Positions 241 to 11,137 of a DNA stretch of 11,137 bases are shown piece after piece; position 1 is the stretch's first letter, and every line of letters begins with the position of its first letter. The DNA is taken from IMG/VR virus record IMGVR_UViG_2554235127_000004; one strand, written 5' to 3'. The DNA is from a virus (taxonomy: Duplodnaviria; Heunggongvirae; Uroviricota; Caudoviricetes). The position numbers were made by a program, and so were the translations under genes. The notes under the pieces are model-generated. The model had not been told where the DNA came from. It saw only the letters and a program-made list of their open reading frames with translations, and did not search any database.

Positions 241-1098
241 GTGAAAGCTGACAACCCTTTTGATCTTTTACTTCCTGCTGCAATGGCCAAAGTGGCCGAA
301 GAGGCAGGTGTCTATAAAGCAACGAAACATCCGCTTAAGACTTTCTATCTGGCGATTACCGCCGGTGTTTTCATCTCAATCGCATTCGTCTTCTATATCA
401 CAGCAACCACTGGCACAGGTACAATGCCCTTCGGCATGGCAAAACTGGTTGGCGGCATTTGCTTCTCTCTGGGGTTGATTCTTTGTGTTGTCTGCGGAGC
501 CGATCTCTTTACTTCCACAGTGTTGATTGTTGTTGCCAAGGCGAGTGGGCGCATCACCTGGGGTCAGTTGGCGAAAAACTGGCTAAATGTTTATTTTGGC
601 AACCTGGTCGGCGCACTGCTGTTTGTACTTTTAATGTGGCTTTCCGGCGAGTATATGACCGCAAATGGTCAATGGGGACTAAACGTCCTACAAACCGCCG
701 ACCACAAAGTGCACCATACTTTTATTGAGGCCGTCTGTCTTGGTATCCTGGCGAACCTGATGGTATGTCTGGCAGTATGGATGAGTTATTCTGGCCGCAG
801 CCTGATGGACAAAGCGTTCATTATGGTGCTGCCGGTCGCGATGTTTGTTGCCAGCGGTTTTGAGCACAGTATCGCAAACATGTTTATGATCCCGATGGGT
901 ATTGTAATCCGCGACTTCGCATCTCCGGAATTCTGGACCGCTGTCGGTTCTGCACCGGAAAATTTTTCTCACCTGACCGTGATGAATTTCATCACTGATA
1001 ACCTGATTCCGGTTACGATCGGTAATATTATCGGCGGTGGTTTGTTGGTTGGGTTGACATACTGGGTCATTTACCTGCGTGAAAACGATCACCATTAA
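241..1098 (+). CDS. focA: Formate channel FocA (formate/nitrite transporter family), GTG start
   Basis: From the GTG at 241 the frame encodes 285 aa beginning MKADNPFDLLLPAAMAKVAEEAG, matching FocA as I recall it; multiple hydrophobic helices. The track ORF starts at an ATG at 67, but that extension is an AT-rich leader. A purine-rich GAGAGAG lies upstream of the GTG. Confidence 0.9.
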   Translation: MKADNPFDLLLPAAMAKVAEEAGVYKATKHPLKTFYLAITAGVFISIAFVFYITATTGTGTMPFGMAKLVGGICFSLGLILCVVCGADLFTSTVLIVVAKASGRITWGQLAKNWLNVYFGNLVGALLFVLLMWLSGEYMTANGQWGLNVLQTADHKVHHTFIEAVCLGILANLMVCLAVWMSYSGRSLMDKAFIMVLPVAMFVASGFEHSIANMFMIPMGIVIRDFASPEFWTAVGSAPENFSHLTVMNFITDNLIPVTIGNIIGGGLLVGLTYWVIYLRENDHH

Positions 1099-1152: not shown

Positions 1153-3435
1153 ATGTCCGAGCTTAATGAAAAGTTAGCCACAGCCTGGGAAGGTTTTACC
1201 AAAGGTGACTGGCAGAATGAAGTAAACGTCCGTGACTTCATTCAGAAAAACTACACTCCGTACGAGGGTGACGAGTCCTTCCTGGCTGGCGCTACTGAAG
1301 CGACCACCACCCTGTGGGACAAAGTAATGGAAGGCGTTAAACTGGAAAACCGCACTCACGCGCCAGTTGACTTTGACACCGCTGTTGCTTCCACCATCAC
1401 CTCTCACGACGCTGGTTACATCAACAAGCAGCTTGAGAAAATCGTTGGTCTGCAGACTGAAGCTCCGCTGAAACGTGCTCTTATCCCGTTCGGTGGTATC
1501 AAAATGATCGAAGGTTCCTGCAAAGCGTACAACCGCGAACTGGACCCGATGATCAAAAAAATCTTCACTGAATACCGTAAAACTCACAACCAGGGCGTGT
1601 TCGACGTTTACACTCCGGACATCCTGCGTTGCCGTAAATCCGGTGTTCTGACCGGTCTGCCAGATGCTTATGGCCGTGGTCGTATCATCGGTGACTACCG
1701 TCGCGTTGCGCTGTACGGTATCGACTACCTGATGAAAGACAAACTTGCACAGTTCACCTCTCTGCAGGCTGATCTGGAAAACGGCGTAAACCTGGAACAG
1801 ACTATCCGTCTGCGCGAAGAAATCGCTGAACAGCACCGCGCTCTGGGTCAGATGAAAGAAATGGCTGCGAAATACGGCTACGACATCTCTGGTCCGGCTA
1901 CCAACGCTCAGGAAGCTATCCAGTGGACTTACTTCGGCTACCTGGCTGCTGTTAAGTCTCAGAACGGTGCTGCAATGTCCTTCGGTCGTACCTCCACCTT
2001 CCTGGATGTGTACATCGAACGTGACCTGAAAGCTGGCAAGATCACCGAACAAGAAGCGCAGGAAATGGTTGACCACCTGGTCATGAAACTGCGTATGGTT
2101 CGCTTCCTGCGTACTCCGGAATACGATGAACTGTTCTCTGGCGACCCGATCTGGGCAACCGAATCTATCGGTGGTATGGGCCTCGACGGTCGTACCCTGG
2201 TTACCAAAAACAGCTTCCGTTTCCTGAACACCCTGTACACCATGGGTCCGTCTCCGGAACCGAACATGACCATTCTGTGGTCTGAAAAACTGCCGCTGAA
2301 CTTCAAGAAATTCGCCGCTAAAGTGTCCATCGACACCTCTTCTCTGCAGTATGAGAACGATGACCTGATGCGTCCGGACTTCAACAACGATGACTACGCT
2401 ATTGCTTGCTGCGTAAGCCCGATGATCGTTGGTAAACAAATGCAGTTCTTCGGTGCGCGTGCAAACCTGGCGAAAACCATGCTGTACGCAATCAACGGCG
2501 GCGTTGACGAAAAACTGAAAATGCAGGTTGGTCCGAAGTCTGAACCGATCAAAGGCGATGTCCTGAACTATGATGAAGTGATGGAGCGCATGGATCACTT
2601 CATGGACTGGCTGGCTAAACAGTACATCACTGCACTGAACATCATCCACTACATGCACGACAAGTACAGCTACGAAGCCTCTCTGATGGCGCTGCACGAC
2701 CGTGACGTTATCCGCACCATGGCGTGTGGTATCGCTGGTCTGTCCGTTGCTGCTGACTCCCTGTCTGCAATCAAATATGCGAAAGTTAAACCGATTCGTG
2801 ACGAAGACGGTCTGGCTATCGACTTCGAAATCGAAGGCGAATACCCGCAGTTTGGTAACAACGATCCGCGTGTAGATGACCTGGCTGTTGACCTGGTAGA
2901 ACGTTTCATGAAGAAAATTCAGAAACTGCACACCTACCGTGACGCTATCCCGACTCAGTCTGTTCTGACCATCACTTCTAACGTTGTGTATGGTAAGAAA
3001 ACTGGTAACACCCCAGACGGTCGTCGTGCTGGCGCGCCGTTCGGACCGGGTGCTAACCCGATGCACGGTCGTGACCAGAAAGGTGCTGTAGCGTCTCTGA
3101 CTTCCGTTGCTAAACTGCCGTTTGCTTACGCTAAAGATGGTATCTCCTACACCTTCTCTATCGTTCCGAACGCACTGGGTAAAGACGACGAAGTTCGTAA
3201 GACCAACCTGGCTGGTCTGATGGATGGTTACTTCCACCACGAAGCATCCATCGAAGGTGGTCAGCACCTGAACGTTAACGTGATGAACCGTGAAATGCTG
3301 CTCGACGCGATGGAAAACCCGGAAAAATATCCGCAGCTGACCATCCGTGTATCTGGCTACGCAGTACGTTTCAACTCGCTGACTAAAGAACAGCAGCAGG
3401 ACGTTATTACTCGTACCTTCACTCAATCTATGTAA
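1153..3435 (+). CDS. pflB: Pyruvate formate-lyase (glycyl radical enzyme)
   Basis: 760-aa ORF starting [15 protein letters not shown]. It contains the active-site Cys-Cys motif (IACCVSPM) and the C-terminal glycyl radical motif RVSGYAV. Strong RBS (AGAAGGTAGG) upstream; sits directly after focA as in the focA-pflB operon. Confidence 0.97.
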
Positions 3436-3477
3436 TTAGATTTGACTGAAATCGTACAGTAAAAAGCGTACAATAAA

Positions 3478-3503
3478 GGCTCCACGAAAGTGGGGCCTTT
3501 TTT
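3478..3503 (+). terminator. Rho-independent terminator downstream of pflB
   Basis: GGCTCCAC-GAAA-GTGGGGCC hairpin (8-bp stem with one G-U pair) followed by TTTTTT; a second T-run follows at 3516-3522. Confidence 0.8.
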
Positions 3504-3626
3504 AGCACGAGAGCCTTTTTTGTCAGCTATCTATACTTTAAGGTGACTGCCAAAACAGACTCGACGTAGCCTTCGAGCTGCGCACCAACACGGCCTCAGA
3601 TGGGCCACATCTGGAGAAACACCGCA

Positions 3627-3653
3627 ATGTCAGTTATTGGTGACATTTTTTGA
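3627..3653 (+). pseudogene. pflA: 5' remnant of pflA (PFL-activating enzyme) truncated at the prophage junction: MSVIG then DIF-stop
   Basis: GGAG RBS, then ATG TCA GTT ATT GGT (MSVIG, the N-terminus of PflA as recalled), then GAC ATT TTT TGA and unrelated AT-rich sequence leading into ogr. No PflA radical-SAM CxxxCxxC region follows. Confidence 0.6.
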
Positions 3654-3692
3654 TATCTAATCACATGAAATAAAAGGATTTATTTCTGGTCA

Positions 3693-3712
3693 CGTCCACA
3701 CATTGACCACAT
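3693..3712 (-). other. Two direct repeats TGTGGTCA / TGTGGACG (read on - strand), candidate integrase arm-type binding sites
   Basis: The reverse complement of 3693-3712 reads TGTGGTCA-ATGT-GTGGACG, two copies of a TGTGG(A/T)C motif 12 bp apart, lying 40-70 bp inside the prophage end. My recollection that P2 Int arm sites resemble TGTGGACA is uncertain. Confidence 0.3.
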
Positions 3713-3716
3713 CGAC

Positions 3717-3740
3717 AAAAAAGCCCCTCGACTGAGGGGC
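3717..3740 (-). terminator. Rho-independent terminator after ogr (end of late transcript)
   Basis: Perfect 7-bp GC-rich stem GCCCCTC / GAGGGGC with a 4-nt loop at 3723-3740, followed on the - strand by six T. It lies 14 bp downstream of the ogr stop. Confidence 0.7.
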
Positions 3741-3753
3741 TTTCTGTTTGTAA

Positions 3754-3972
3754 TTACATCCACATAATTTGCTGCCCTGACGGCAACGGGTGCGGCCTTA
3801 CGGCGTGGACTTCTCCCGGCTTCACGATGTATCGCTGTACCGACTCATAAGTGATGAACGTGGCGCTGCAATTCACGTTCTGGCACTGGTGATAACGCTC
3901 TTTTGTCGTGTCAGTGATATAGCGACTTGTACGCGCATGTGCGGCATGCTGGCATAAAGGACAATGAAACAT
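3754..3972 (-). CDS. ogr: Ogr-type zinc-finger late-gene transcriptional activator (72 aa)
   Basis: From the ATG at 3972 the frame encodes MFHCPLCQHAAHARTSRYITDTTKERYHQCQNVNCSATF..., with the CxxC...CxxxxC zinc-binding arrangement of P2 Ogr. The track ORF has a 21-codon upstream extension that runs into the promoter and is probably not translated. Confidence 0.9.
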   Translation of the reverse strand: MFHCPLCQHAAHARTSRYITDTTKERYHQCQNVNCSATFITYESVQRYIVKPGEVHAVRPHPLPSGQQIMWM

Positions 3973-4006
3973 CGCGAGCACCTCTTCCGGTTTTGTTGAT
4001 GGTGCC

Positions 4007-4035
4007 ATTTTAGTTAATTTATCCTTATAAAACAA
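4007..4035 (-). promoter_or_regulatory. Candidate sigma70 promoter for ogr
   Basis: On the - strand: TTGTTT (4035-4030), 17-bp spacer, TAAAAT (4012-4007), about 35 bp upstream of the ogr ATG, in the D-ogr intergenic region. Confidence 0.4.
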
Positions 4036-4053
4036 ACAGATAAATAATAAACA

Positions 4054-5217
4054 TCACTCATCACCTTCTGTTTCGTACTCCACATCAGAAAGCCTGACCT
4101 CAAGCTCTAAGGACGTCGTGAAGCCGCTATTATTCAGAAAATGTGTCACCTTAGTGATTGTCCAGTCCTGCTCGTCTATGACGCGCTTAAAGCCTGACAC
4201 TTTAACCGGTGTTTCCGTGTAAATATCTGCCCGACCGGTAGCCAGGCTGATGGAAAACTCCGCGACGCCCCGTTGCAGTTTGTCCCACTTCGCCTGAGCG
4301 GCGCGCATGGCCTGCGCTTTTGTGGCATATACCGTAGTCAGGGCAAAAACGTTGTCAGCTTCACCGGCCATGTATTCACCTTCGCGCGCTTCCGGTACTT
4401 TTGGCGCTTTCTTCTGCGTGACCGGTTTCGCTTTCGGGTGCTCCAGTGCGCGCAGGTGTTTCTCTTTCTTTTTGCGTTTCAGTTTTACCTTCTGCTTTTG
4501 CGGCTTCGGGTCTTTGGTGTGTAGCCACTTTGCCGTTACGCCGGTGTAGGCTCCACGGTCAGCAATCGCAAAATGGTGACGGTCGCCATCGCTGCGGGTG
4601 ATGGTAATCTGCGGGATTTTCTTACCGCTGGCCGTCACCCCCTGCCCCGCTTTGAGAAACAGCAGTTTTCCCATTTTTACCGACACCTCACCGCCGTTGC
4701 GTTCAGCAAGACGGGTCAGGAATTTCGCATCAGACTCCTGCGACTGGTCGATGTGCGGGATTTTAATTCCGGCCAGTGACGGAGCGACACTGGCTTCCAG
4801 CCTGTTACGGGTGGCTATCGCCTCAACAATCGCACCGAGCGTGGTGTCATGCCAGGAGCCTTCCCGGCGGGAATTGAGCGTCCCGCGAAAATCTGCACTC
4901 CGGGCGCGGATGGTGACCACATCCGGTGCGCCCCGGTGTTCAACCTCATCAACGGTAAATTTCCCTTTGCATACCAGGGCAAAACCTTTCCAGCCGATAT
5001 ACACCGTCAGGACAGCGCCACGAACCGGCAGCCCGACCTGCCCGTCGGCATCGTTCAGTTCAATATCAAGCTGGTCAGCCTCAAAGCCCCGGTTATCCGT
5101 CAGGGTCATGCTCATCAGACGGTCGCTGATATTGCCGGTAATATCCCTGCTGTCGAGCATCAGCATATAATCCGGCGTCAGTGTACTGCCTGCATCAAAT
5201 GTCAGCGCATCCAGCAT
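4054..5217 (-). CDS. D: P2 gpD-like tail protein (late gene D)
   Basis: 387-aa ORF starting MLDALTFDAGSTLTPDYMLMLDSRD, matching P2 gpD in length and sequence as recalled. Its start ATG overlaps the U stop (TAATG). Confidence 0.9.
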   Translation of the reverse strand: MLDALTFDAGSTLTPDYMLMLDSRDITGNISDRLMSMTLTDNRGFEADQLDIELNDADGQVGLPVRGAVLTVYIGWKGFALVCKGKFTVDEVEHRGAPDVVTIRARSADFRGTLNSRREGSWHDTTLGAIVEAIATRNRLEASVAPSLAGIKIPHIDQSQESDAKFLTRLAERNGGEVSVKMGKLLFLKAGQGVTASGKKIPQITITRSDGDRHHFAIADRGAYTGVTAKWLHTKDPKPQKQKVKLKRKKKEKHLRALEHPKAKPVTQKKAPKVPEAREGEYMAGEADNVFALTTVYATKAQAMRAAQAKWDKLQRGVAEFSISLATGRADIYTETPVKVSGFKRVIDEQDWTITKVTHFLNNSGFTTSLELEVRLSDVEYETEGDE

Positions 5218-5696
5218 TATCCCGCCCCCGTCATACCCGTGAATCTGGTCGCCATACTGCCAGCCTTACCGATGAGCGATTCCGCCTGTTTACCGATATC
5301 GCCATAAAGCGCGGCCAGTGATTCATCAACGCGGGTGAGTGACAGCGTAAAATCAATTTTCCGGGGTGTGCCGTCTGCAAAGAAAATACTCCCTGTTTCA
5401 CTCACCCTGCTGATGACATACATGCCGTAAATCATGCCGGTGCCATCCAGCAACGGCCACGCCCGTCCCTCCTCTGCCATCAGCCTGAGCGTGGTCATCG
5501 TCAGCTTGCCGCCGGTCAGTTCGGGATAAAGCACACCGGCCAGCGTCATGTTTTCCTCACCCACACCGAGAAACTGGTAGGCATCCCGTTTACCGATACG
5601 GGAATTTGACGGCCAGCGATAATCTGATTCACGCTGCATGGTCTGGTGTGGCAGCGTCTGGCGCATAAAAACAAACATACCTAACGCGAGCATCAT
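5217..5696 (-). CDS. U: P2 gpU-like tail protein
   Basis: 159-aa ORF in the conserved position between T and D; stop overlaps the D start by 1 nt, suggesting translational coupling. Confidence 0.88.
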   Translation of the reverse strand: MMLALGMFVFMRQTLPHQTMQRESDYRWPSNSRIGKRDAYQFLGVGEENMTLAGVLYPELTGGKLTMTTLRLMAEEGRAWPLLDGTGMIYGMYVISRVSETGSIFFADGTPRKIDFTLSLTRVDESLAALYGDIGKQAESLIGKAGSMATRFTGMTGAG

Positions 5697-5710
5697 TTTT
5701 CGTCACCTCC

Positions 5711-8158
5711 TTAACCGTCATGCATCATGCTGGCACGGGCGCGCGCACGTTTATCCCGCTCGTATTTTTCGAGCGCATCCTGTAACTGGCGGTCGAGCTG
5801 AGTCCCCGGCGCAGTACCGCCCGTCAGACTGATGTGATATTCGTTTTTACTCTGGTCCACATAAGAGCGGCCAGCCGGTGCCGTAACCGGCTGATAAGCC
5901 TGATAGCCTGCATAAGAGCTGGTCGCCGGAATATAACCACCGGTGCCATACGTGGCGGCATGAGTTCTGGCGGCGGTCTGGTCAAGTGTGTCTGACTCTT
6001 TGTTGATAACACCGAGTTTTTCCAGTACCCAGTCAATACCACTGCGCAGTTTGTTGAACGCATTAAGCGGCAGCATCAACGCGTCAGCCAGTGCCTGCCC
6101 GAACATGACGCCCGTGTCACGGCAACGGTTCAGGGTGTCCTGGGTGGCTTTAACCGGGGCGATCAGGTTTTTAAACCACTGCCACGCGGCCTGTAACTTT
6201 TCGCCCAACCAGTCAAACACCGGCTTAAGTGGCGTGAACAGTTCCCCCACCGGCGCAAATGCCGCTTTCAGCCCTTCCACCACACCGCCAAAGAATGCGC
6301 TGACAGGCTCCCAGTATTTACGGATAAGCAACGCCCCGGCGACAATGGCGGCCACCACGGCCACAACCGGCCAGCTAATCGCTCCGATGGCGGTCATAAC
6401 AGCACTGCCAACCGTCGTGAAGATTGCCCCCATTGCGCCTGCTGCCGCGATGATGGCATTGATGCCAGTGATAACCGGCCAGGCTACGAGGCCAATGGCA
6501 CCGATGACACCAATCAGTGCCAGTGCACCACCGACAATAAGTCCGATGGTTGACGCCAGTGATTTGTTTTTCTGGATCCAGCCGTCGAGTTTTAACACAT
6601 ACTTTGTGGCCGTCTGCGTGAGCTTACGCAGTGCGCCTTCCTGCTGGTCAAACAGGTCAGTCCCCACCGCCTCATAAGCGGACTGAAACTCTTTAAAGTC
6701 ACCGCCGAGGTTGTCCTGCATGATATTTACCAGCTCGGCGGTCTTCCCGTCTGAGGCTTTAAACGCAGCGGTCAGTTTGTCCAGCTTTCCGGTTGAGGCG
6801 GCAGTCATCAGCACGGCGGCGGCTGAGCTGGCCTCCTCCCCGAAAATGGTTTTCATGTATTCAGCCTGCTGGGCAGTACCGAGCCGGTTTTTCTCAAAAC
6901 TGGCCTGCATTTCTTTCAGAATGGTAAATACTGGTCGGGTATTCCCCTTACTGTCTGAGGTTTTTACGCCAAGCTCTTTGAGTGCATCCCATGCTTTTCC
7001 CGTTGGTGCCTGCAGGCGACTTAACACGGCACGGCTTCCCGTCCCCGCCATTGAGCCTGTGATTTTTGCATCATGCAGCGCCCCGACCATTGCGGCGGTT
7101 TCTTCAATGCTGACACCGGCATTTTTTGCCACAGGTGCGGCATAGGTCAGCGCATCGCTCATGCCGTCAAAATCGGCGGCGGTTTTGTTCATCGTCATGG
7201 AGAGAACATCCCCGATATGAGCGACCTTATCGTTTGAAAGCTGAAAGGCGGATTTCATCCCCATCAACAGGGCGGCGTTTTCTTCCATCGTGCGACGGTT
7301 CGCCAGCGCCATATTCAGCGTGACCGGCGTTGCCGCCTGAATGGCATCAACATCCCCACCCGCTTTCGCGATGATTATCTGTGCACCGGCCGCATCATCC
7401 GCCGAGGCGGCGGTATTGTCGCCGAGCTGGCGCGCCTGCTTGCGTAGCGCGGCCATTTCGGCGGAGTCTTTTGCCACACCGAGCACGGCCTGTAATTCTG
7501 AGTTTTTCTGCGCAAATTCATAACCGGGCATCAGCAGCTTAACTCCGGCCATCGTTCCCGCCGCCGCAATCCCCACACCGGCAGCGCCCACTGAGGCCAT
7601 ATTTCCGGCCAGTTCCTTGCCGGCCTGATAACGCTGTTTGACTGCGTTAAGTTTTGCCTGTTGCGCACTGACACGCGCCAGCGCGTCACGCTGCCGGTTA
7701 AGCTGTGCGGTGGTTTCACTGATACGGTTTTTCAGTCCCTGCTCATCATGTGCAAGATTGCGGGTATTAATTCCCACAGCGGCCAGTTCCCGCTGCTGGC
7801 GTTTAACGGAATCCGTCAGGCGGTTATATTTCGCCTGTAAGTCCTCCGCCGCACGCTTTGCGGATTCCAGCACTTTCGCCTGAGCACGGGTCGGACGTTC
7901 GGTGTTTTTAAACTGTGTGGCAAGGGCTTCGGCTTCCTGCCGAGCCTTTTCAAGTGCATGACCAGTCACGGCGAGCTGTGCACTGGTCTTGCGAAATCCC
8001 TCAATACGGGATGCCTGACCGTTCAGCTCGCGCAGTGATTTTTGTGTTTCCCGGATATCCCCCGACAGCGATTTGCTCGCTGTGCGGATGGATTTAAACG
8101 GGCGGGATGCCTGGTCAACAGCCCTGAGCAATACCTGTAATTTTACATTGTTACTCAT
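5711..8158 (-). CDS. T: Tail tape measure protein (P2 gpT-like)
   Basis: 815-aa ORF with long Ala/Gln/Arg-rich coiled-coil-like regions and a central stretch of Gly/Ala/Ile-rich hydrophobic segments, typical of tape measure proteins. It follows the E/E' pair. Confidence 0.9.
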   Translation of the reverse strand: MSNNVKLQVLLRAVDQASRPFKSIRTASKSLSGDIRETQKSLRELNGQASRIEGFRKTSAQLAVTGHALEKARQEAEALATQFKNTERPTRAQAKVLESAKRAAEDLQAKYNRLTDSVKRQQRELAAVGINTRNLAHDEQGLKNRISETTAQLNRQRDALARVSAQQAKLNAVKQRYQAGKELAGNMASVGAAGVGIAAAGTMAGVKLLMPGYEFAQKNSELQAVLGVAKDSAEMAALRKQARQLGDNTAASADDAAGAQIIIAKAGGDVDAIQAATPVTLNMALANRRTMEENAALLMGMKSAFQLSNDKVAHIGDVLSMTMNKTAADFDGMSDALTYAAPVAKNAGVSIEETAAMVGALHDAKITGSMAGTGSRAVLSRLQAPTGKAWDALKELGVKTSDSKGNTRPVFTILKEMQASFEKNRLGTAQQAEYMKTIFGEEASSAAAVLMTAASTGKLDKLTAAFKASDGKTAELVNIMQDNLGGDFKEFQSAYEAVGTDLFDQQEGALRKLTQTATKYVLKLDGWIQKNKSLASTIGLIVGGALALIGVIGAIGLVAWPVITGINAIIAAAGAMGAIFTTVGSAVMTAIGAISWPVVAVVAAIVAGALLIRKYWEPVSAFFGGVVEGLKAAFAPVGELFTPLKPVFDWLGEKLQAAWQWFKNLIAPVKATQDTLNRCRDTGVMFGQALADALMLPLNAFNKLRSGIDWVLEKLGVINKESDTLDQTAARTHAATYGTGGYIPATSSYAGYQAYQPVTAPAGRSYVDQSKNEYHISLTGGTAPGTQLDRQLQDALEKYERDKRARARASMMHDG

Positions 8159-8578
8159 TCGTGTTTCCGCTTCGCCGGAGCGCCTTTTCGCGCCATGTGA
8201 TGAGTTCGGTCAGGCTCATGGGATACAGTTCTGATGGCGGCCAGTGAAATACCACTGCCACATCCGCCATCAGGTCATCGACCGAGAGATTTTTCGGAAA
8301 CGTCACTGCACCGAGTTCGGCGACAAAAAACCGACCACCTTACCGGCCAGCGCCACAAGGTCAGGCAGTTCCAGCGCGGCGACTTCCTGCTCGGTCAGCA
8401 TCGGTGCCGTCATGCGCGGCAGCACTTTAATCAGTGCATCGACTTCGGAGTTCGCGACCGCTGCCAGACTGACACCGCGCAGCGTCCCGGCATTGGGTTT
8501 CATCAGCGTGACCTGTTCGATAACCTGCTCACCACGTTTGACCGGATTGTCCAGGGTAATGACATTTTCTTTGTTCAT
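8151..8578 (-). CDS. Tail assembly chaperone fusion E+E' made by a programmed -1 frameshift (about 141-142 aa)
   Basis: I translated the -1 frame by hand from the slippery site: 56 sense codons (VAELGAVTFPKNLSVDDLMADVAVVFHWPPSELYPMSLTELITWREKALRRSGNTNE) with no stop until TAA at 8151-8153. This frame has no start codon of its own. It matches the E/E' arrangement described for P2. Confidence 0.7.
8303..8578 (-). CDS. E: Tail assembly chaperone gpE (91 aa, zero-frame product)
   Basis: ORF starting MNKENVITLDNPVKRGEQ between FII and T, ending at TGA 8303-8305. Confidence 0.88.
   Translation of the reverse strand: MNKENVITLDNPVKRGEQVIEQVTLMKPNAGTLRGVSLAAVANSEVDALIKVLPRMTAPMLTEQEVAALELPDLVALAGKVVGFLSPNSVQ
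8324..8330 (-). other. Slippery heptamer T TTT TTG for the -1 frameshift (E to E')
   Basis: The zero-frame codons GGT TTT TTG place T_TTT_TTG in the X_XXY_YYZ register at E codons 84-85. The -1 frame is open from here to the T start region. Confidence 0.65.
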
Positions 8579-8605
8579 GGTTTTCTCACTTCTGAATCGG
8601 GGTTA

Positions 8606-8626
8606 CCGGTCAGCCTGGCTGACCGG
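8606..8626 (-). other. 21-bp near-perfect palindrome (RNA hairpin) in the FII-E intergenic region
   Basis: CCGGTCAGCC-T-GGCTGACCGG between the FII stop (8634) and the E start (8578). No U-tract follows on the - strand, so it is not a classical terminator. Confidence 0.4.
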
Positions 8627-8633
8627 ATGAAAA

Positions 8634-9152
8634 TCACAGGCCGATATTGCGGCGGTGTTGCTCCAGTCGGTCGACGCCGTTCACCTTCTCAATCATGTTG
8701 ATGGTGTCAATTTCGACCAGCTCCTTACCGTCCATCGTCAGCCGGAAATAGGTGCAGACCACGGAGATTTTCGACTCGGTGTCTTCTCCCTGTTTGCCCT
8801 CGCCGGTGTCGATTTCTTTCTGACGTCCACGCATGACCACCTCGACGGCCACCGTTTCGCCGGTATCGTCGCGCTGGTAAGAGCCTGCAAAACGAATCGG
8901 CACGGCATCCACGCCGGTTGCGGCGTAAAGCTCCCAGATAACCGAATCCGGGAAGCCACCGAGCGACCACTCCATTGACAGCGCATCGTCATCAAGGCCG
9001 AGGTCTACCGGTGCGCTGCCGTTCATCCCCGCACCGCGATAGTTTTCGAGCTTACGGGTCAGTTTTGGCAGCGTGACGGACTTCGCGACGCCCTGATAGC
9101 TGTAGCCGTTCAGAAAGACGTTCATTAACTTGAGTTTGCGCGGCATTGCCAT
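8634..9152 (-). CDS. FII: Tail tube protein (P2 gpFII-like)
   Basis: 172-aa ORF starting MAMPRKLKLMNVFLNGYSYQGVAKS, 12 bp downstream of the FI stop with a GGAG RBS. Confidence 0.92.
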   Translation of the reverse strand: MAMPRKLKLMNVFLNGYSYQGVAKSVTLPKLTRKLENYRGAGMNGSAPVDLGLDDDALSMEWSLGGFPDSVIWELYAATGVDAVPIRFAGSYQRDDTGETVAVEVVMRGRQKEIDTGEGKQGEDTESKISVVCTYFRLTMDGKELVEIDTINMIEKVNGVDRLEQHRRNIGL

Positions 9153-9164
9153 CGGTCAGGCTCC

Positions 9165-10355
9165 TTAATTGCTGTTAACCGAGGTGACCAGATTTGCCAG
9201 GTATTTATCGGTAATACGCTGGCGCAGGGTCAGGTTTTCGAGAGGAGGCACCGGTGTATAGTCGTAGTCGATATACAGTTTTCCGGCCTTGAGGGTTTCC
9301 GCATCGTTGGATTCTTCGCTGAACCAGCATGAGCCATCCACGATATAGCCGTTTGTTTTCAGCTCACGGAATTTGGCATTGATGCCGTCAACGATATCGC
9401 GAATCAGCGTTGCGGTGATGGGCTTGTCCACCGCCCACATGTGCGCCTCAGCCATCGTGTCGGCCAGCACCTGCGCGGTGCGGGTGTAGTTTTCAAAGAG
9501 AAACAGCGGGTCATCAGAGCAGGTACGGTTACCCCAGAAGCGGAAACCGTCGCGGCGAATCAGCGTAGTGACGCCTGACTCGTTAAGCAGGTCAGCATCG
9601 GTGCCGGACTCCTGCAAATCCCAGAATACAGAGGCGCTGATGCCGGTAACACCGTTTACCCCGACGTTGGACAGCGTTTTATGCCAGCCCTGCTCCTGGT
9701 CGATTTTAGCGCGCAGACCCAGCGCACGGGCGGTGGCATACGCGGTGGCGGTGGTACTGGTAACCGTATCCCATGCGAGGAAATCCGGCCAGATGACCAT
9801 CAGCTCACGCTGGCTGAAATTCTGGCGGTAGGCTTTCACCTCGGAAATGGTTTTACAGCCCCATGCGCTGATATACCCGAAAGCGCGCAGCTTCTGACAG
9901 ACGGATGCCAGTGCAACAGCCACCTCTTTGGTATCCAGTCCCGGCACACCGAGAATACGCGGTTTAACACCGGTTACCGACTCCGCCGCCAGCAGGGCTT
10001 TCAGTCCGGTGTACTGACCGTTTTCGTCAGTGGTGCCGATGATATTGGAAACGGTCTGCGCGAGTTTCGTTTCTTCGTCGTCGCCGGTTCCGTCTTCCAC
10101 GCGCACGACAACGGTGACCGGTTTTGACTGGTCAGCGATGGCCTGCAACGATGCCGCCAGCGTGCCTTTTTTACCGGCCTTTGCAATCGCGCTCTGCACA
10201 TTGGTGATCAGCACCGGTTTATTGACGGGGAAGGTTTCCGCATCCGCATCGCTGGCCGTGCAGACCATGCCAACAATGGCGGTGGATACGGTGGAAATGA
10301 CGCGGGTGCCGTCGTTAATCTCCAGCACCTGCACGCCGTGATGATAGTCACTCAT
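9165..10355 (-). CDS. FI: Contractile tail sheath protein (P2 gpFI-like)
   Basis: 396-aa ORF starting MSDYHHGVQVLEINDGTRVIS, first gene of the FI-FII-E-T-U-D order; GGAG RBS upstream. Confidence 0.92.
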   Translation of the reverse strand: MSDYHHGVQVLEINDGTRVISTVSTAIVGMVCTASDADAETFPVNKPVLITNVQSAIAKAGKKGTLAASLQAIADQSKPVTVVVRVEDGTGDDEETKLAQTVSNIIGTTDENGQYTGLKALLAAESVTGVKPRILGVPGLDTKEVAVALASVCQKLRAFGYISAWGCKTISEVKAYRQNFSQRELMVIWPDFLAWDTVTSTTATAYATARALGLRAKIDQEQGWHKTLSNVGVNGVTGISASVFWDLQESGTDADLLNESGVTTLIRRDGFRFWGNRTCSDDPLFLFENYTRTAQVLADTMAEAHMWAVDKPITATLIRDIVDGINAKFRELKTNGYIVDGSCWFSEESNDAETLKAGKLYIDYDYTPVPPLENLTLRQRITDKYLANLVTSVNSN

Positions 10356-10414: not shown

Positions 10415-11008
10415 CTATTTGTCCCGGTTGGCTAAGGGATGACACAATTTATTCTTTGTCGCTGATGAGGGGAATTTTTTATAGAGCGTGGACAGGCCAA
10501 TATCAAAAATCAGCGCCACACGTTGACGAGATTCCCCCGCAGCCAGCAACCGTCCGACCTGCTCCCACTCACCCGCAGTGAGTTTCGGTCGTCTGCCACC
10601 AATACGACCTTTGGCTCTGGCCGCTTCCAGTCCGGCGCGTGTCCGCTCGACAATGAGTTCTCGCTCCATTTCAGCCAGGGCACCCATCACATGAAAGAAA
10701 AAACGCCCCATCGGCGTGCTGGTATCAATAGCATCCGTCAGGCTGCGAAAATTAACGCCGCGTTCGCGCAGTTCCTCAACCAGAATGACCAGATGCCGCA
10801 TACTACGCCCCAGCCTGTCCAGCTTCCAGACCACCAGTGTATCCCCCTCAGATAATGTTCTGAGCAGTTTTTTCAGTCCCGGTCGGTCGGACTTTGTGCC
10901 GCTGATTTTATCCTCAAAAATCAGCTCACATCCTGCACACTCCAGCGCATTACGCTGCAATTCCGTATTCTGGTCATTTGTTGATACGCGGACATAGCCA
11001 ATAAGCAT
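10415..11008 (-). CDS. Serine recombinase, DNA invertase of the Gin/Hin/Cin/Pin family
   Basis: From the ATG at 11008 the frame encodes MLIGYVRVSTNDQNTELQRNALECAGCE...VVWKLDRLGRSM...GRFFFHVMGALAEMERELIVERT...STLYKK. It has the catalytic serine in the GYVRVSTNDQ motif and a C-terminal helix-turn-helix, and resembles Mu Gin as recalled. The track ORF has a 29-codon upstream extension that is probably not translated. Confidence 0.85.
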   Translation of the reverse strand: MLIGYVRVSTNDQNTELQRNALECAGCELIFEDKISGTKSDRPGLKKLLRTLSEGDTLVVWKLDRLGRSMRHLVILVEELRERGVNFRSLTDAIDTSTPMGRFFFHVMGALAEMERELIVERTRAGLEAARAKGRIGGRRPKLTAGEWEQVGRLLAAGESRQRVALIFDIGLSTLYKKFPSSATKNKLCHPLANRDK

Positions 11009-11063
11009 GATGGATCCCCTGAATAAAAACCGGAGATGATGCCACTTGCCCGTTATCTCTGCA

Positions 11064-11089
11064 TTTTCATAAACGTTGGTTTGGGAACA
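11064..11089. other. Candidate 26-bp invertase crossover site (gix/hix/cix-like)
   Basis: TTTTCATAAACG-TT-GGTTTGGGAACA: two imperfect inverted 12-bp half-sites around a 2-bp core with the conserved AAAC(C/G)-NN-GGTTT centre. By my own alignment it matches recalled gixL at 17 of 26 and hixL at 18 of 26 positions. It lies 56 bp upstream of the invertase ATG. Confidence 0.5.
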
Positions 11090-11137
11090 CTGCAATCATC
11101 CTTCACAGATAAAACGGGTAAAATTGCATTAAATGGC

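What the first reader, a model, noticed from the sequence alone, without database searches (positions are those of the whole stretch)
3604..3753. P2-like prophage is inserted into the first codons of pflA, directly behind pflB
The sequence shows the pflA ribosome-binding site and ATG TCA GTT ATT GGT (MSVIG), then GAC ATT TTT TGA and AT-rich DNA that runs into the ogr terminator. The PFL-activating enzyme gene is therefore cut after codon 5 at this prophage end. Either the core shared between phage and host att sites includes the pflA start and the gene is rebuilt with phage-supplied upstream DNA at the far end, or pflA is inactivated. Inactivation would leave PflB without its dedicated activase and change anaerobic formate metabolism. 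I do not recall this as one of the classical P2 attachment sites.
Basis: partly seen in the sequence, partly recalled or inferred. Interest (0 to 1): 0.6.

Follow-up and report, generated by a model that had tools for sequence, protein, structure and literature searches.

The report
P2-like prophage in pflA start
A P2-like prophage sits in the first codons of the E. coli pflA gene at an already documented attachment site, and related genomes indicate pflA is rebuilt at the far prophage end with a phage-supplied start codon and short leader rather than destroyed.

Summary
Window 3627-3641 is the pflA start (ATG TCA GTT ATT GGT). From 3642 the DNA is the right arm of a P2-like phage attP, running into the ogr terminator and the late genes.

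Aligning attB, attP, attL and attR gives a 13-bp common core, GTCAGTTATTGGT (window 3629-3641). About 7.5% of complete E. coli genomes (403-405 of 5426) carry both junctions.

At the far end, which lies outside this window, int is followed 31 nt later by a phage ATG. Twenty phage-supplied codons (19 added residues, with the native Met1 codon replaced by AAG) read in frame into pflA codon 2. The product is a 265-aa PflA that RefSeq already annotates. The exact protein is seen on at least 1000 contigs.

The same design, at the same length, recurs with diverged integrases in other genera. It also survives as a fossil after prophage loss, for example in two Salmonella assemblies where sopD2 lies between pflB and pflA. 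pflA is therefore most likely rebuilt, not inactivated.

The site matches the published attachment site of the P2-like coliphages PhiD145 and PhiD160. ECA29 of Pectobacterium uses the same site. The finding is real but already known.

Function of the fusion protein and its promoter are inferred, not shown.

The parts
241..1098 (+). focA, formate channel (host)
   Evidence: Pfam Form_Nir_trans. Annotated focA at the same coordinates in a near-identical genome.
1153..3435 (+). pflB, pyruvate formate-lyase (host), intact
   Evidence: Pfam PFL-like plus Gly_radical, 760 aa. Annotated pflB.
3476..3503 (+). pflB terminator hairpin (GGCTCCAC-GAAA-GTGGGGCC, then a T run), untouched by the insertion
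   Evidence: Read from the sequence. The homologous hairpin in Salmonella scores as a terminator.
3504..3626 (+). Native pflA upstream region (host arm of attL) with the GGAG ribosome-binding site at 3613-3616. It is now separated from the body of pflA.
   Evidence: Identical to the K-12 pflB-pflA intergenic DNA. Anti-SD duplex -6.4 kcal/mol.
3627..3653 (+). Remnant ORF MSVIGDIF*: pflA codons 1-5, then three phage codons and a stop
3629..3641 (.). 13-bp common core GTCAGTTATTGGT of attL. The strand exchange lies within it.
   Evidence: Four-way comparison of attB, attP, attL and attR.
3642..3753 (.). Phage right arm of attP, with a P2-type Int arm-site-like GTCCACAC at 3694-3701
   Evidence: Identical to free phages P2_4E6b and vB_YpM_46. 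Published P2-type arm consensus is tgTGGaCa.
3720..3743 (.). Hairpin with T runs on both sides. It is the ogr terminator on the minus strand and would also stop transcripts entering from the orphaned pflA promoter on the plus strand.
3754..3972 (-). ogr, late-gene activator
   Evidence: Pfam Ogr_Delta. Annotated ogrK.
4054..5217 (-). gpD, tail / late control protein
   Evidence: Pfam Phage_GPD.
5217..5696 (-). gpU, tail protein
   Evidence: Pfam Phage_P2_GpU.
5711..8158 (-). gpT, tape measure
   Evidence: Pfam PhageMin_Tail.
8151..8578 (-). gpE and E+E', tail assembly chaperones
   Evidence: Pfam Phage_TAC_7. Annotation.
8634..9152 (-). FII, tail tube
   Evidence: Pfam Phage_tube.
9165..10355 (-). 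FI, tail sheath
   Evidence: Pfam Phage_sheath_1 and Phage_sheath_1C.
10415..11008 (-). Serine invertase (resolvase family) next to the tail-fibre genes
   Evidence: Pfam Resolvase plus HTH_7. Annotated as a recombinase.

Best explanation
The window holds the left junction (attL) of a roughly 31-kb P2-like (Peduovirus) prophage. A tyrosine integrase 53% identical to P2 Int recombined the phage attP with a 13-bp core, GTCAGTTATTGGT, that lies in codons 1-5 of host pflA. At this end the native pflA promoter, ribosome-binding site and ATG now drive only an 8-codon remnant, which runs into the two-way ogr terminator. pflB and its terminator are untouched. At the other end, seen in related genomes but not in this window, the phage supplies an ATG 31 nt after the int stop codon and 20 codons in all. 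Nineteen are added residues, and AAG takes the place of the native ATG. They read in frame into pflA codon 2 and give a 265-aa PflA (MSNLTNCNTTENTATAGATK-SVIGRIHSFE...). No plus-strand terminator is predicted between the phage Pc-like promoter, C, int and pflA. I therefore infer that in the lysogen pflA is transcribed with the immunity/int operon, or from a weak promoter in the 3' end of int, and that the fusion protein is an active PFL activase. Shown: the junction anatomy, the core, the intact in-frame fusion ORF, its prevalence, and its conservation across genera and after prophage decay. Inferred: that this genome has the same far end, that the fusion is active, and which promoter drives it.
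For: The four att sites define the core. Two full lysogens show focA-pflB-attL-ogr...cox-C-int-attR-pflA, with the same Int (WP_000023390.1) and the same 265-aa PflA (WP_000067979.1). The attL junction is in 403 genomes and attR in 405 of 5426. Twenty deposited phage genomes carry this int and attP, with the small ORF MSNLTNCNTTENTATAGATKSVIGDIF spanning the core. The exact fusion protein is seen on at least 1000 contigs. The same leader sits on Klebsiella pneumoniae PflA on 336 contigs. Integrase relatives of 76-100% identity in E. albertii, three Scandinavium species, Pseudescherichia vulneris and Rahnella ecdela all sit directly upstream of pflA. Each has an open, in-frame leader of the same length, despite 7-10 non-synonymous codon changes against the E. 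coli leader in the non-Escherichia genera (one in E. albertii). In E. coli, Salmonella and Scandinavium the only in-frame ATG/GTG/TTG codons are the leader ATG and native Met32, which lies inside the CxxxCxxC region. The leader-pflA fusion persists after the prophage is gone. Two Salmonella assemblies show a 249-nt fossil of the int 3' end plus leader (70% identity, E = 6e-25). Metagenome contigs L017 and L020 show int remnants, one with an internal stop codon. The AlphaFold model has leader residues 1-17 below pLDDT 50 on an otherwise confident fold. Solved PFL-AE structures align to residues 22-265, and the NCBIfam PflA model matches residues 21-265. No plus-strand terminator is predicted from Pc to the pflA terminator.
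Against: The far end of this genome is outside the window. The best complete-genome match is only 98.5% identical, so its attR is assumed by analogy. The leader ATG has a poor Shine-Dalgarno match (-2.1 kcal/mol against -6.4 for native pflA), so expression could be low. No expression or activity data were available. A review states that the P2-family prophage ECA29 'disrupted' pflA in Pectobacterium (PMC13492144), and I could not inspect that locus. The promoter-like sites near the leader are no more frequent than chance.
Confidence: 0.85

Rival explanations
1. pflA is inactivated by the insertion, and lysogens lack the dedicated PFL activase.
For: The native promoter, ribosome-binding site and ATG are split from the gene body. 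The leader has a weak Shine-Dalgarno match. A review describes ECA29 as disrupting pflA in Pectobacterium.
Against: An intact in-frame 265-aa ORF is present in the lysogens examined, and the exact protein is seen on at least 1000 contigs with no sign of decay. The leader is kept open and at constant length across diverged phages and genera. The fusion allele is retained after the prophage itself has decayed, including in Salmonella, a genus with well-known PFL-dependent mixed-acid fermentation (established knowledge).
Confidence: 0.07
2. pflA is rebuilt, but the annotated leader is not translated. Translation starts at or near the native position from a non-canonical codon, and the upstream ATG is only an open-frame coincidence or a constraint of attP arm DNA.
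For: In Rahnella and in contig L017 a start codon (ATG or GTG) sits at the native position. The first 12 nt of the leader are also conserved at the DNA level, which could reflect attP function. The leader has a weak Shine-Dalgarno match.
Against: In E. coli, Salmonella and Scandinavium the native position holds AAG, and no ATG/GTG/TTG occurs before native Met32. Frame and length are kept in at least nine diverged leader variants. Synonymous changes occur at conserved residues: S2 AGT/AGC, N3 AAT/AAC, C7 TGT/TGC.
Confidence: 0.06
3. In this particular strain the prophage is a remnant, or the far end is rearranged, so pflA is lost or displaced.
For: The window ends inside the prophage. Some related genomes carry IS insertions in the prophage (H42).
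Against: The counts of attL (403) and attR (405) genomes nearly match. All late genes in the window are intact.
Confidence: 0.05

Closest known systems
P2-like coliphages PhiD145 and PhiD160 (Karlsson et al. 2006; Mandali et al. 2010; Nilsson et al. 2011, PMC3448106)
   Same: They are P2-type phages with their own integrase specificity. Their attB is given as MG1655 coordinate 950293 in old numbering. With the offset between genome versions, that is nucleotide 11 of pflA, inside the 13-bp core found here.
   Different: I could not obtain the PhiD145 int or attP sequence, so identity of the integrase is inferred from the site alone. The one paper I could read does not mention the pflA fusion.
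Prophage ECA29 of Pectobacterium atrosepticum SCRI1043
   Same: It is a P2-family prophage listed with 'PhiD145' integration-site identity and reported to lie in pflA.
   Different: It is reported as disrupting pflA. Here and in six other genera the gene is rebuilt as a fusion. I could not inspect the ECA29 junctions.
Bacteriophage P2 (attP with locI, locII, locIII and locH)
   Same: Same genome layout (ogr-attP-int), Pc-C-int operon reading toward attP, P2-type arm-site repeats, and a short core.
   Different: The Int is only 53% identical. The core and host site are different, and this one lies inside a protein-coding gene.
Phage integration that rebuilds or rewires a host gene (phage 21 and e14 in icd; HK022 at torS, Carey et al. 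2019)
   Same: The phage carries a substitute for the part of the host gene or its control region that it displaces. HK022 replaces the native torS promoter with a phage promoter.
   Different: Here the 5' end is replaced, meaning promoter, ribosome-binding site and start codon. The substitute is not a copy of the host sequence but an unrelated 19-residue leader, so the host protein is changed.

Membership tests
P2-like (Peduovirus) prophage | Late-gene block ogr-D-U-T-E/E'-FII-FI in P2 order next to attP | tested here: met
   Pfam hits in P2 order at window 3754-10355. 98-99% DNA identity to annotated P2-like prophages.
P2-like (Peduovirus) prophage | int-C / cox switch region and replication and head genes at the other end | not testable with these tools
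   This lies outside the 11-kb window. It is present in related lysogens carrying the same attL.
Tyrosine-recombinase att site (P2 type) | A common core shared by attP and attB, with attL and attR as reciprocal hybrids | tested here: met
   The 13-bp GTCAGTTATTGGT is shared. The arms recombine exactly as expected.
Tyrosine-recombinase att site (P2 type) | Arm-type direct repeats matching tgTGGaCa on both arms | tested here: met
   GTCCATAA occurs twice, 11 bp apart, at the int end. GTCCACAC is at window 3694-3701. The consensus is from PMC3448106. Binding was not tested.
PhiD145-type integration site | attB at MG1655 950293 (old numbering), the 5' end of pflA | tested here: met
   pflA is at 950340-951080 (complement) in NC_000913.3. 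The paper uses an older version, because its ileX coordinate does not fit version 3. The +777 offset is from my own knowledge and places the site at nucleotide 11 of pflA.
PhiD145-type integration site | Integrase sequence identical or near-identical to PhiD145 Int | not testable with these tools
   AM158280, AM159077 and AJ298559 are not in the collections, and the primary papers are not held.
Gene-rebuilding prophage integration | An intact ORF for the target gene restored at one junction | tested here: met
   A 265-aa in-frame fusion is present in related lysogens and in other genera. It was not seen for this genome itself.
Gene-rebuilding prophage integration | The restored gene is expressed and active | not testable with these tools
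   Indirect evidence only: conservation, persistence after prophage decay, and a disordered leader in the model.

The most novel reading that the evidence does not exclude
The 19-residue phage leader may be a selected gene-repair module rather than an annotation quirk. On this reading, PhiD145-type phages across Enterobacterales replace the promoter, ribosome-binding site and start codon of pflA. That places the PFL activase under prophage (Pc-C-int) transcription. The fused allele has outlived the phage in several lineages. In the Salmonella assemblies seen here, the 265-aa PflA, its upstream region and possibly the sopD2 effector island between pflB and pflA would then descend from such a prophage. 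I found no paper that describes this, but the key primary papers could not be read.
Probability: 0.45. Interest if true: 0.5.

Novelty: already known. Interest (0 to 1): 0.25.

Why it matters
About one complete E. coli genome in thirteen (403-405 of 5426) carries this prophage. All such strains make PflA with a foreign N-terminus, presumably from foreign transcription signals. This matters for anyone who interprets pflA as disrupted in genome annotation or who studies anaerobic formate metabolism in lysogens. It also gives a clean example of a phage that repairs the gene it cuts with unrelated coding sequence. The repair leaves a recognisable scar that can date ancient integrations, such as the Salmonella sopD2 locus. 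The insertion site itself is already in the literature.

Tried and rejected
- **Literature searches.** Searches for pflA combined with P2-like, prophage, attB, integrase, sopD2 and ELPhiS/RE-2010 found no description of the E. coli site. The sopD2 hits were 'pFLAG' plasmid names. The site surfaced only through an ECA29 search.
- **Primary papers not held.** Karlsson 2006, Mandali 2010, Evans 2010 and Nilsson 2004 could not be read.
- **Short junction-peptide search.** A 60-aa query returned only fragments of 105 aa or less. The full-length query was needed.
- **Cluster size.** The 6565-member 90% cluster mixes native 246-aa and fused 265-aa proteins, so it cannot be used as a count of fusions.
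- **Providencia PflA.** Its 262-264-aa extension looked similar, but it lies directly behind pflB with no phage DNA and no similarity to the int/leader region. I rejected it as phage-derived.
- **IHF consensus.** No WATCAANNNNTTR match with at most one mismatch was found in attP, so I make no IHF claim.
- **Common Salmonella allele.** A guessed sequence for the common Salmonella PflA allele was not in the collection. How general the Salmonella fossil is remains unverified.
- **Promoter scans.** Promoter-like sites were at chance frequency and are not used as evidence.

Full report
**Observation.**
- A GGAG lies at 3613-3616, followed by ATG TCA GTT ATT GGT at 3627-3641 and GAC ATT TTT TGA at 3642-3653.
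- AT-rich DNA then leads to a G+C-rich hairpin at 3720-3743 and the stop codon of ogr at 3754.
- Pfam assigns focA and pflB to the left. To the right, on the minus strand, it assigns ogr, D, U, T, E, FII, FI and a serine invertase, which is the P2 late-gene order.
- The hairpin folds far better than shuffled sequence on both strands (z = -5.9 and -5.1). It also scores as a plus-strand terminator.

**What the junction is.** I compared four sequences:
- the empty K-12 locus (L002);
- free phage genomes P2_4E6b and Yersinia phage vB_YpM_46 (L003, L004);
- this window;
- the far end of a full lysogen (L001).

They are the four members of one site-specific recombination set:

| Site | Sequence |
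|---|---|
| attB | caccgcaatG TCAGTTATTGGT cgcattcac |
| attP | gctaccaaG TCAGTTATTGGT gacatttttt |

- attL (this window) is host-left plus phage-right, and attR is phage-left plus host-right.
- The exact common core is 13 bp, GTCAGTTATTGGT (window 3629-3641). It covers the last base of the pflA start codon and codons 2-5.
- The host arm is 99.4% identical to K-12.
- P2-type arm repeats are present. GTCCATAA occurs twice, 11 bp apart, at the int end, and GTCCACAC is at window 3694-3701. The published consensus is tgTGGaCa.

**The far end.** It lies outside the window, so I used related genomes.
- The attL junction is present in 403 of 5426 complete E. coli genomes and the int-pflA junction in 405.
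- Two lysogens were read in full: HB-Coli0 and ECONIH5. ECONIH5 is among the closest matches to the window at 98.3%.
- Both show focA-pflB-attL-ogr...cox-C-int-attR-pflA-ycaK. Both have the same integrase, WP_000023390.1, and the same 265-aa PflA, WP_000067979.1.
- The attR sequence reads int stop, 31 nt, then ATG AGT AAT TTA ACT AAT TGT AAT ACA ACA GAA AAT ACC GCT ACG GCG GGG GCT ACC AAG | TCA GTT ATT GGT CGC ATT CAC....
- The native ATG is therefore replaced by AAG. A phage ATG 19 codons upstream opens a frame that runs into pflA codon 2, which accounts for 265 = 246 + 19 residues.
- The only other in-frame ATG/GTG/TTG is native Met32, inside the radical-SAM cysteine motif.
- In the free phage the same frame is a 27-codon ORF that crosses the core.

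**Is the fusion meaningful?** Several lines say yes.
- The exact 265-aa protein occurs on at least 1000 contigs under the plain name of PflA. Klebsiella pneumoniae PflA carries the identical leader on 336 contigs.
- A scan of one genome per species found integrase relatives (76-100% identical) in Escherichia albertii, three Scandinavium species, Pseudescherichia vulneris and Rahnella ecdela. Each is directly upstream of pflA, with the pflA motif at exactly the same distance from int.
- Their leaders have diverged (MSNLNTCNLTENTDAPGAVK, MSNLTSCNLKENTDNSEVAK, MSNLTDCISTESTTESGGHM). In the non-Escherichia genera 7-10 codons differ non-synonymously from the E. coli leader (E. albertii differs at one), yet all stay open, in frame and of the same length.
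- M-[ST]-N-L-x-x-C-x-x-x-E is kept, and synonymous changes occur at the conserved residues.
- Further variants turn up in Citrobacter and in metagenomes.
- An AlphaFold model of the 265-aa form has residues 1-17 below pLDDT 50 on an otherwise confident PFL-AE fold.
- The solved structures (3C8F, 3CB8) align to residues 22-265. The NCBIfam PflA equivalog matches residues 21-265.

**Fossils.** The fusion outlives the phage.
- In two Salmonella enterica assemblies the locus is focA-pflB-sopD2 (minus strand)-570 nt-pflA of 265 aa, with the leader MSNLNDCIKKENTAAAAEKK.
- sopD2 matches the NCBIfam equivalog at 660 bits against a cut-off of 386.
- The 249 nt up to and into the leader align with the E. 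coli phage int 3' end, spacer and leader at 70% identity (E = 6e-25). No intact integrase or phage gene remains.
- Metagenome contig L017 has pflB, 430 nt, then a 265-aa pflA. It carries a remnant of the Int C-terminus (residues 269-331, 74% identity) that contains an internal stop codon.
- L020 and L021 show the same kind of remnant.
- Retention of the leader allele after decay of the prophage argues that the fusion is functional. Salmonella has well-known PFL-dependent mixed-acid fermentation (established knowledge, not tested here).

**Mechanism.**
- Shown: the recombination anatomy, the fate of both gene halves, the intact fusion ORF and its conservation.
- Inferred, left end: the orphaned pflA promoter and ribosome-binding site produce only MSVIGDIF*, and transcription stops at the two-way ogr hairpin. 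pflB and its terminator are unaffected.
- Inferred, right end: no plus-strand terminator is predicted from the Pc-like promoter upstream of C, through int, to the pflA terminator. pflA is therefore probably co-transcribed with the immunity/int operon. The promoter-like matches near the leader are at chance frequency.
- The leader ATG has a weak Shine-Dalgarno match (-2.1 against -6.4 kcal/mol for the native site). The level of PflA may therefore differ from that in a non-lysogen.

**Comparison with the literature.**
- The integrase is 53% identical to P2 Int, 55% to that of fiAA91-ss and 60% to that of P88. Twenty deposited phages carry it at 99% identity or more, including pro483, pro147, P2_4E6b, D8, 11W, 12W and several phages isolated on Yersinia pestis.
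- Nilsson et al. 2011 (PMC3448106) list the P2-like coliphages PhiD145 and PhiD160 as integrating at MG1655 coordinate 950293. They give ECA29 of Pectobacterium atrosepticum the same site identity.
- That paper uses an older genome version, because its ileX coordinate falls inside rpoD in NC_000913.3. pflA is at 950340-951080 (complement) in version 3.
- With the 777-nt offset between versions (my own knowledge), 950293 becomes 951070. That is nucleotide 11 of pflA and lies within the core found here.
- A 2026 review cites ECA29 as disrupting pflA (PMC13492144). The primary papers were not available.
- I found no text that describes the leader fusion or the Salmonella fossil, but I cannot exclude that the primary papers do.

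**Verdict.** The site is not a P2 locus but matches the known PhiD145-type site. The feature is common, annotated and published, so interest is low. The conserved leader and its fossils are a modestly interesting side result.

Noticed in passing
L012 2470-4798 (Salmonella enterica GCA_010400525.1; L013 is the same): sopD2 lies between pflB and a 265-aa pflA. The upstream region of that pflA is a decayed int 3' end plus phage leader (70% identity over 249 nt). The native pflA promoter region and attL are gone. This suggests the sopD2 island occupies an ancient PhiD145-type prophage site. How general this is across Salmonella was not verified.
   Followed up: partly
L017 3570-4075; L020 1748-2200: Two metagenome lineages have a 265-aa leader-pflA with only a remnant of int upstream. 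In L017 the remnant contains a stop codon. In L020 pflA is not even next to pflB; a GntP permease gene lies upstream.
   Followed up: partly
P0242 (Klebsiella pneumoniae PflA, 336 contigs): It carries exactly the E. coli phage leader MSNLTNCNTTENTATAGATK on a Klebsiella PflA body. The same phage type apparently lysogenises Klebsiella at pflA. The genomic context was not inspected.
   Followed up: no
L009 about 3527-3600 (Rahnella ecdela); L017 about 4000-4070: In these variants the 20th leader codon is ATG (Rahnella) or GTG (L017). A start codon is therefore kept at the native position in addition to the upstream leader ATG.
   Followed up: no
L014 4001-4789 (Providencia; also P0132, P0119): PflA is annotated with a 16-18-residue Thr-rich N-terminal extension, although pflA directly follows pflB with no phage DNA. 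It is either a native extension or an over-long start call, and it is unrelated to the phage leader.
   Followed up: partly
window 1174-3426, minus strand: A 750-codon open frame runs antisense to almost the whole of pflB. It is probably a shadow ORF of a strongly codon-biased gene.
   Followed up: no
window 10415-11137: A serine invertase gene lies next to the tail-fibre region. The last roughly 50 bases of the window are not covered by the best genome matches, which end at 11086. That fits a variable or invertible tail-fibre segment starting there.
   Followed up: no
L001 26823-29082 versus L022 25643-28126: The cargo between the portal gene and the replication gene differs between two otherwise similar prophages. 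One has a DprA-like gene plus a hypothetical gene. The other has a reverse-transcriptase (retron-like) gene with an HTH gene. This is the known P2 defence hotspot.
   Followed up: no
L002 676-705 (K-12 attB); window 3600-3626: The native locus has an in-frame ATG nine codons upstream of the accepted pflA start (MGHIWRNTA-MSVIG), overlapping the GGAG. It is retained in attL of the window.
   Followed up: no
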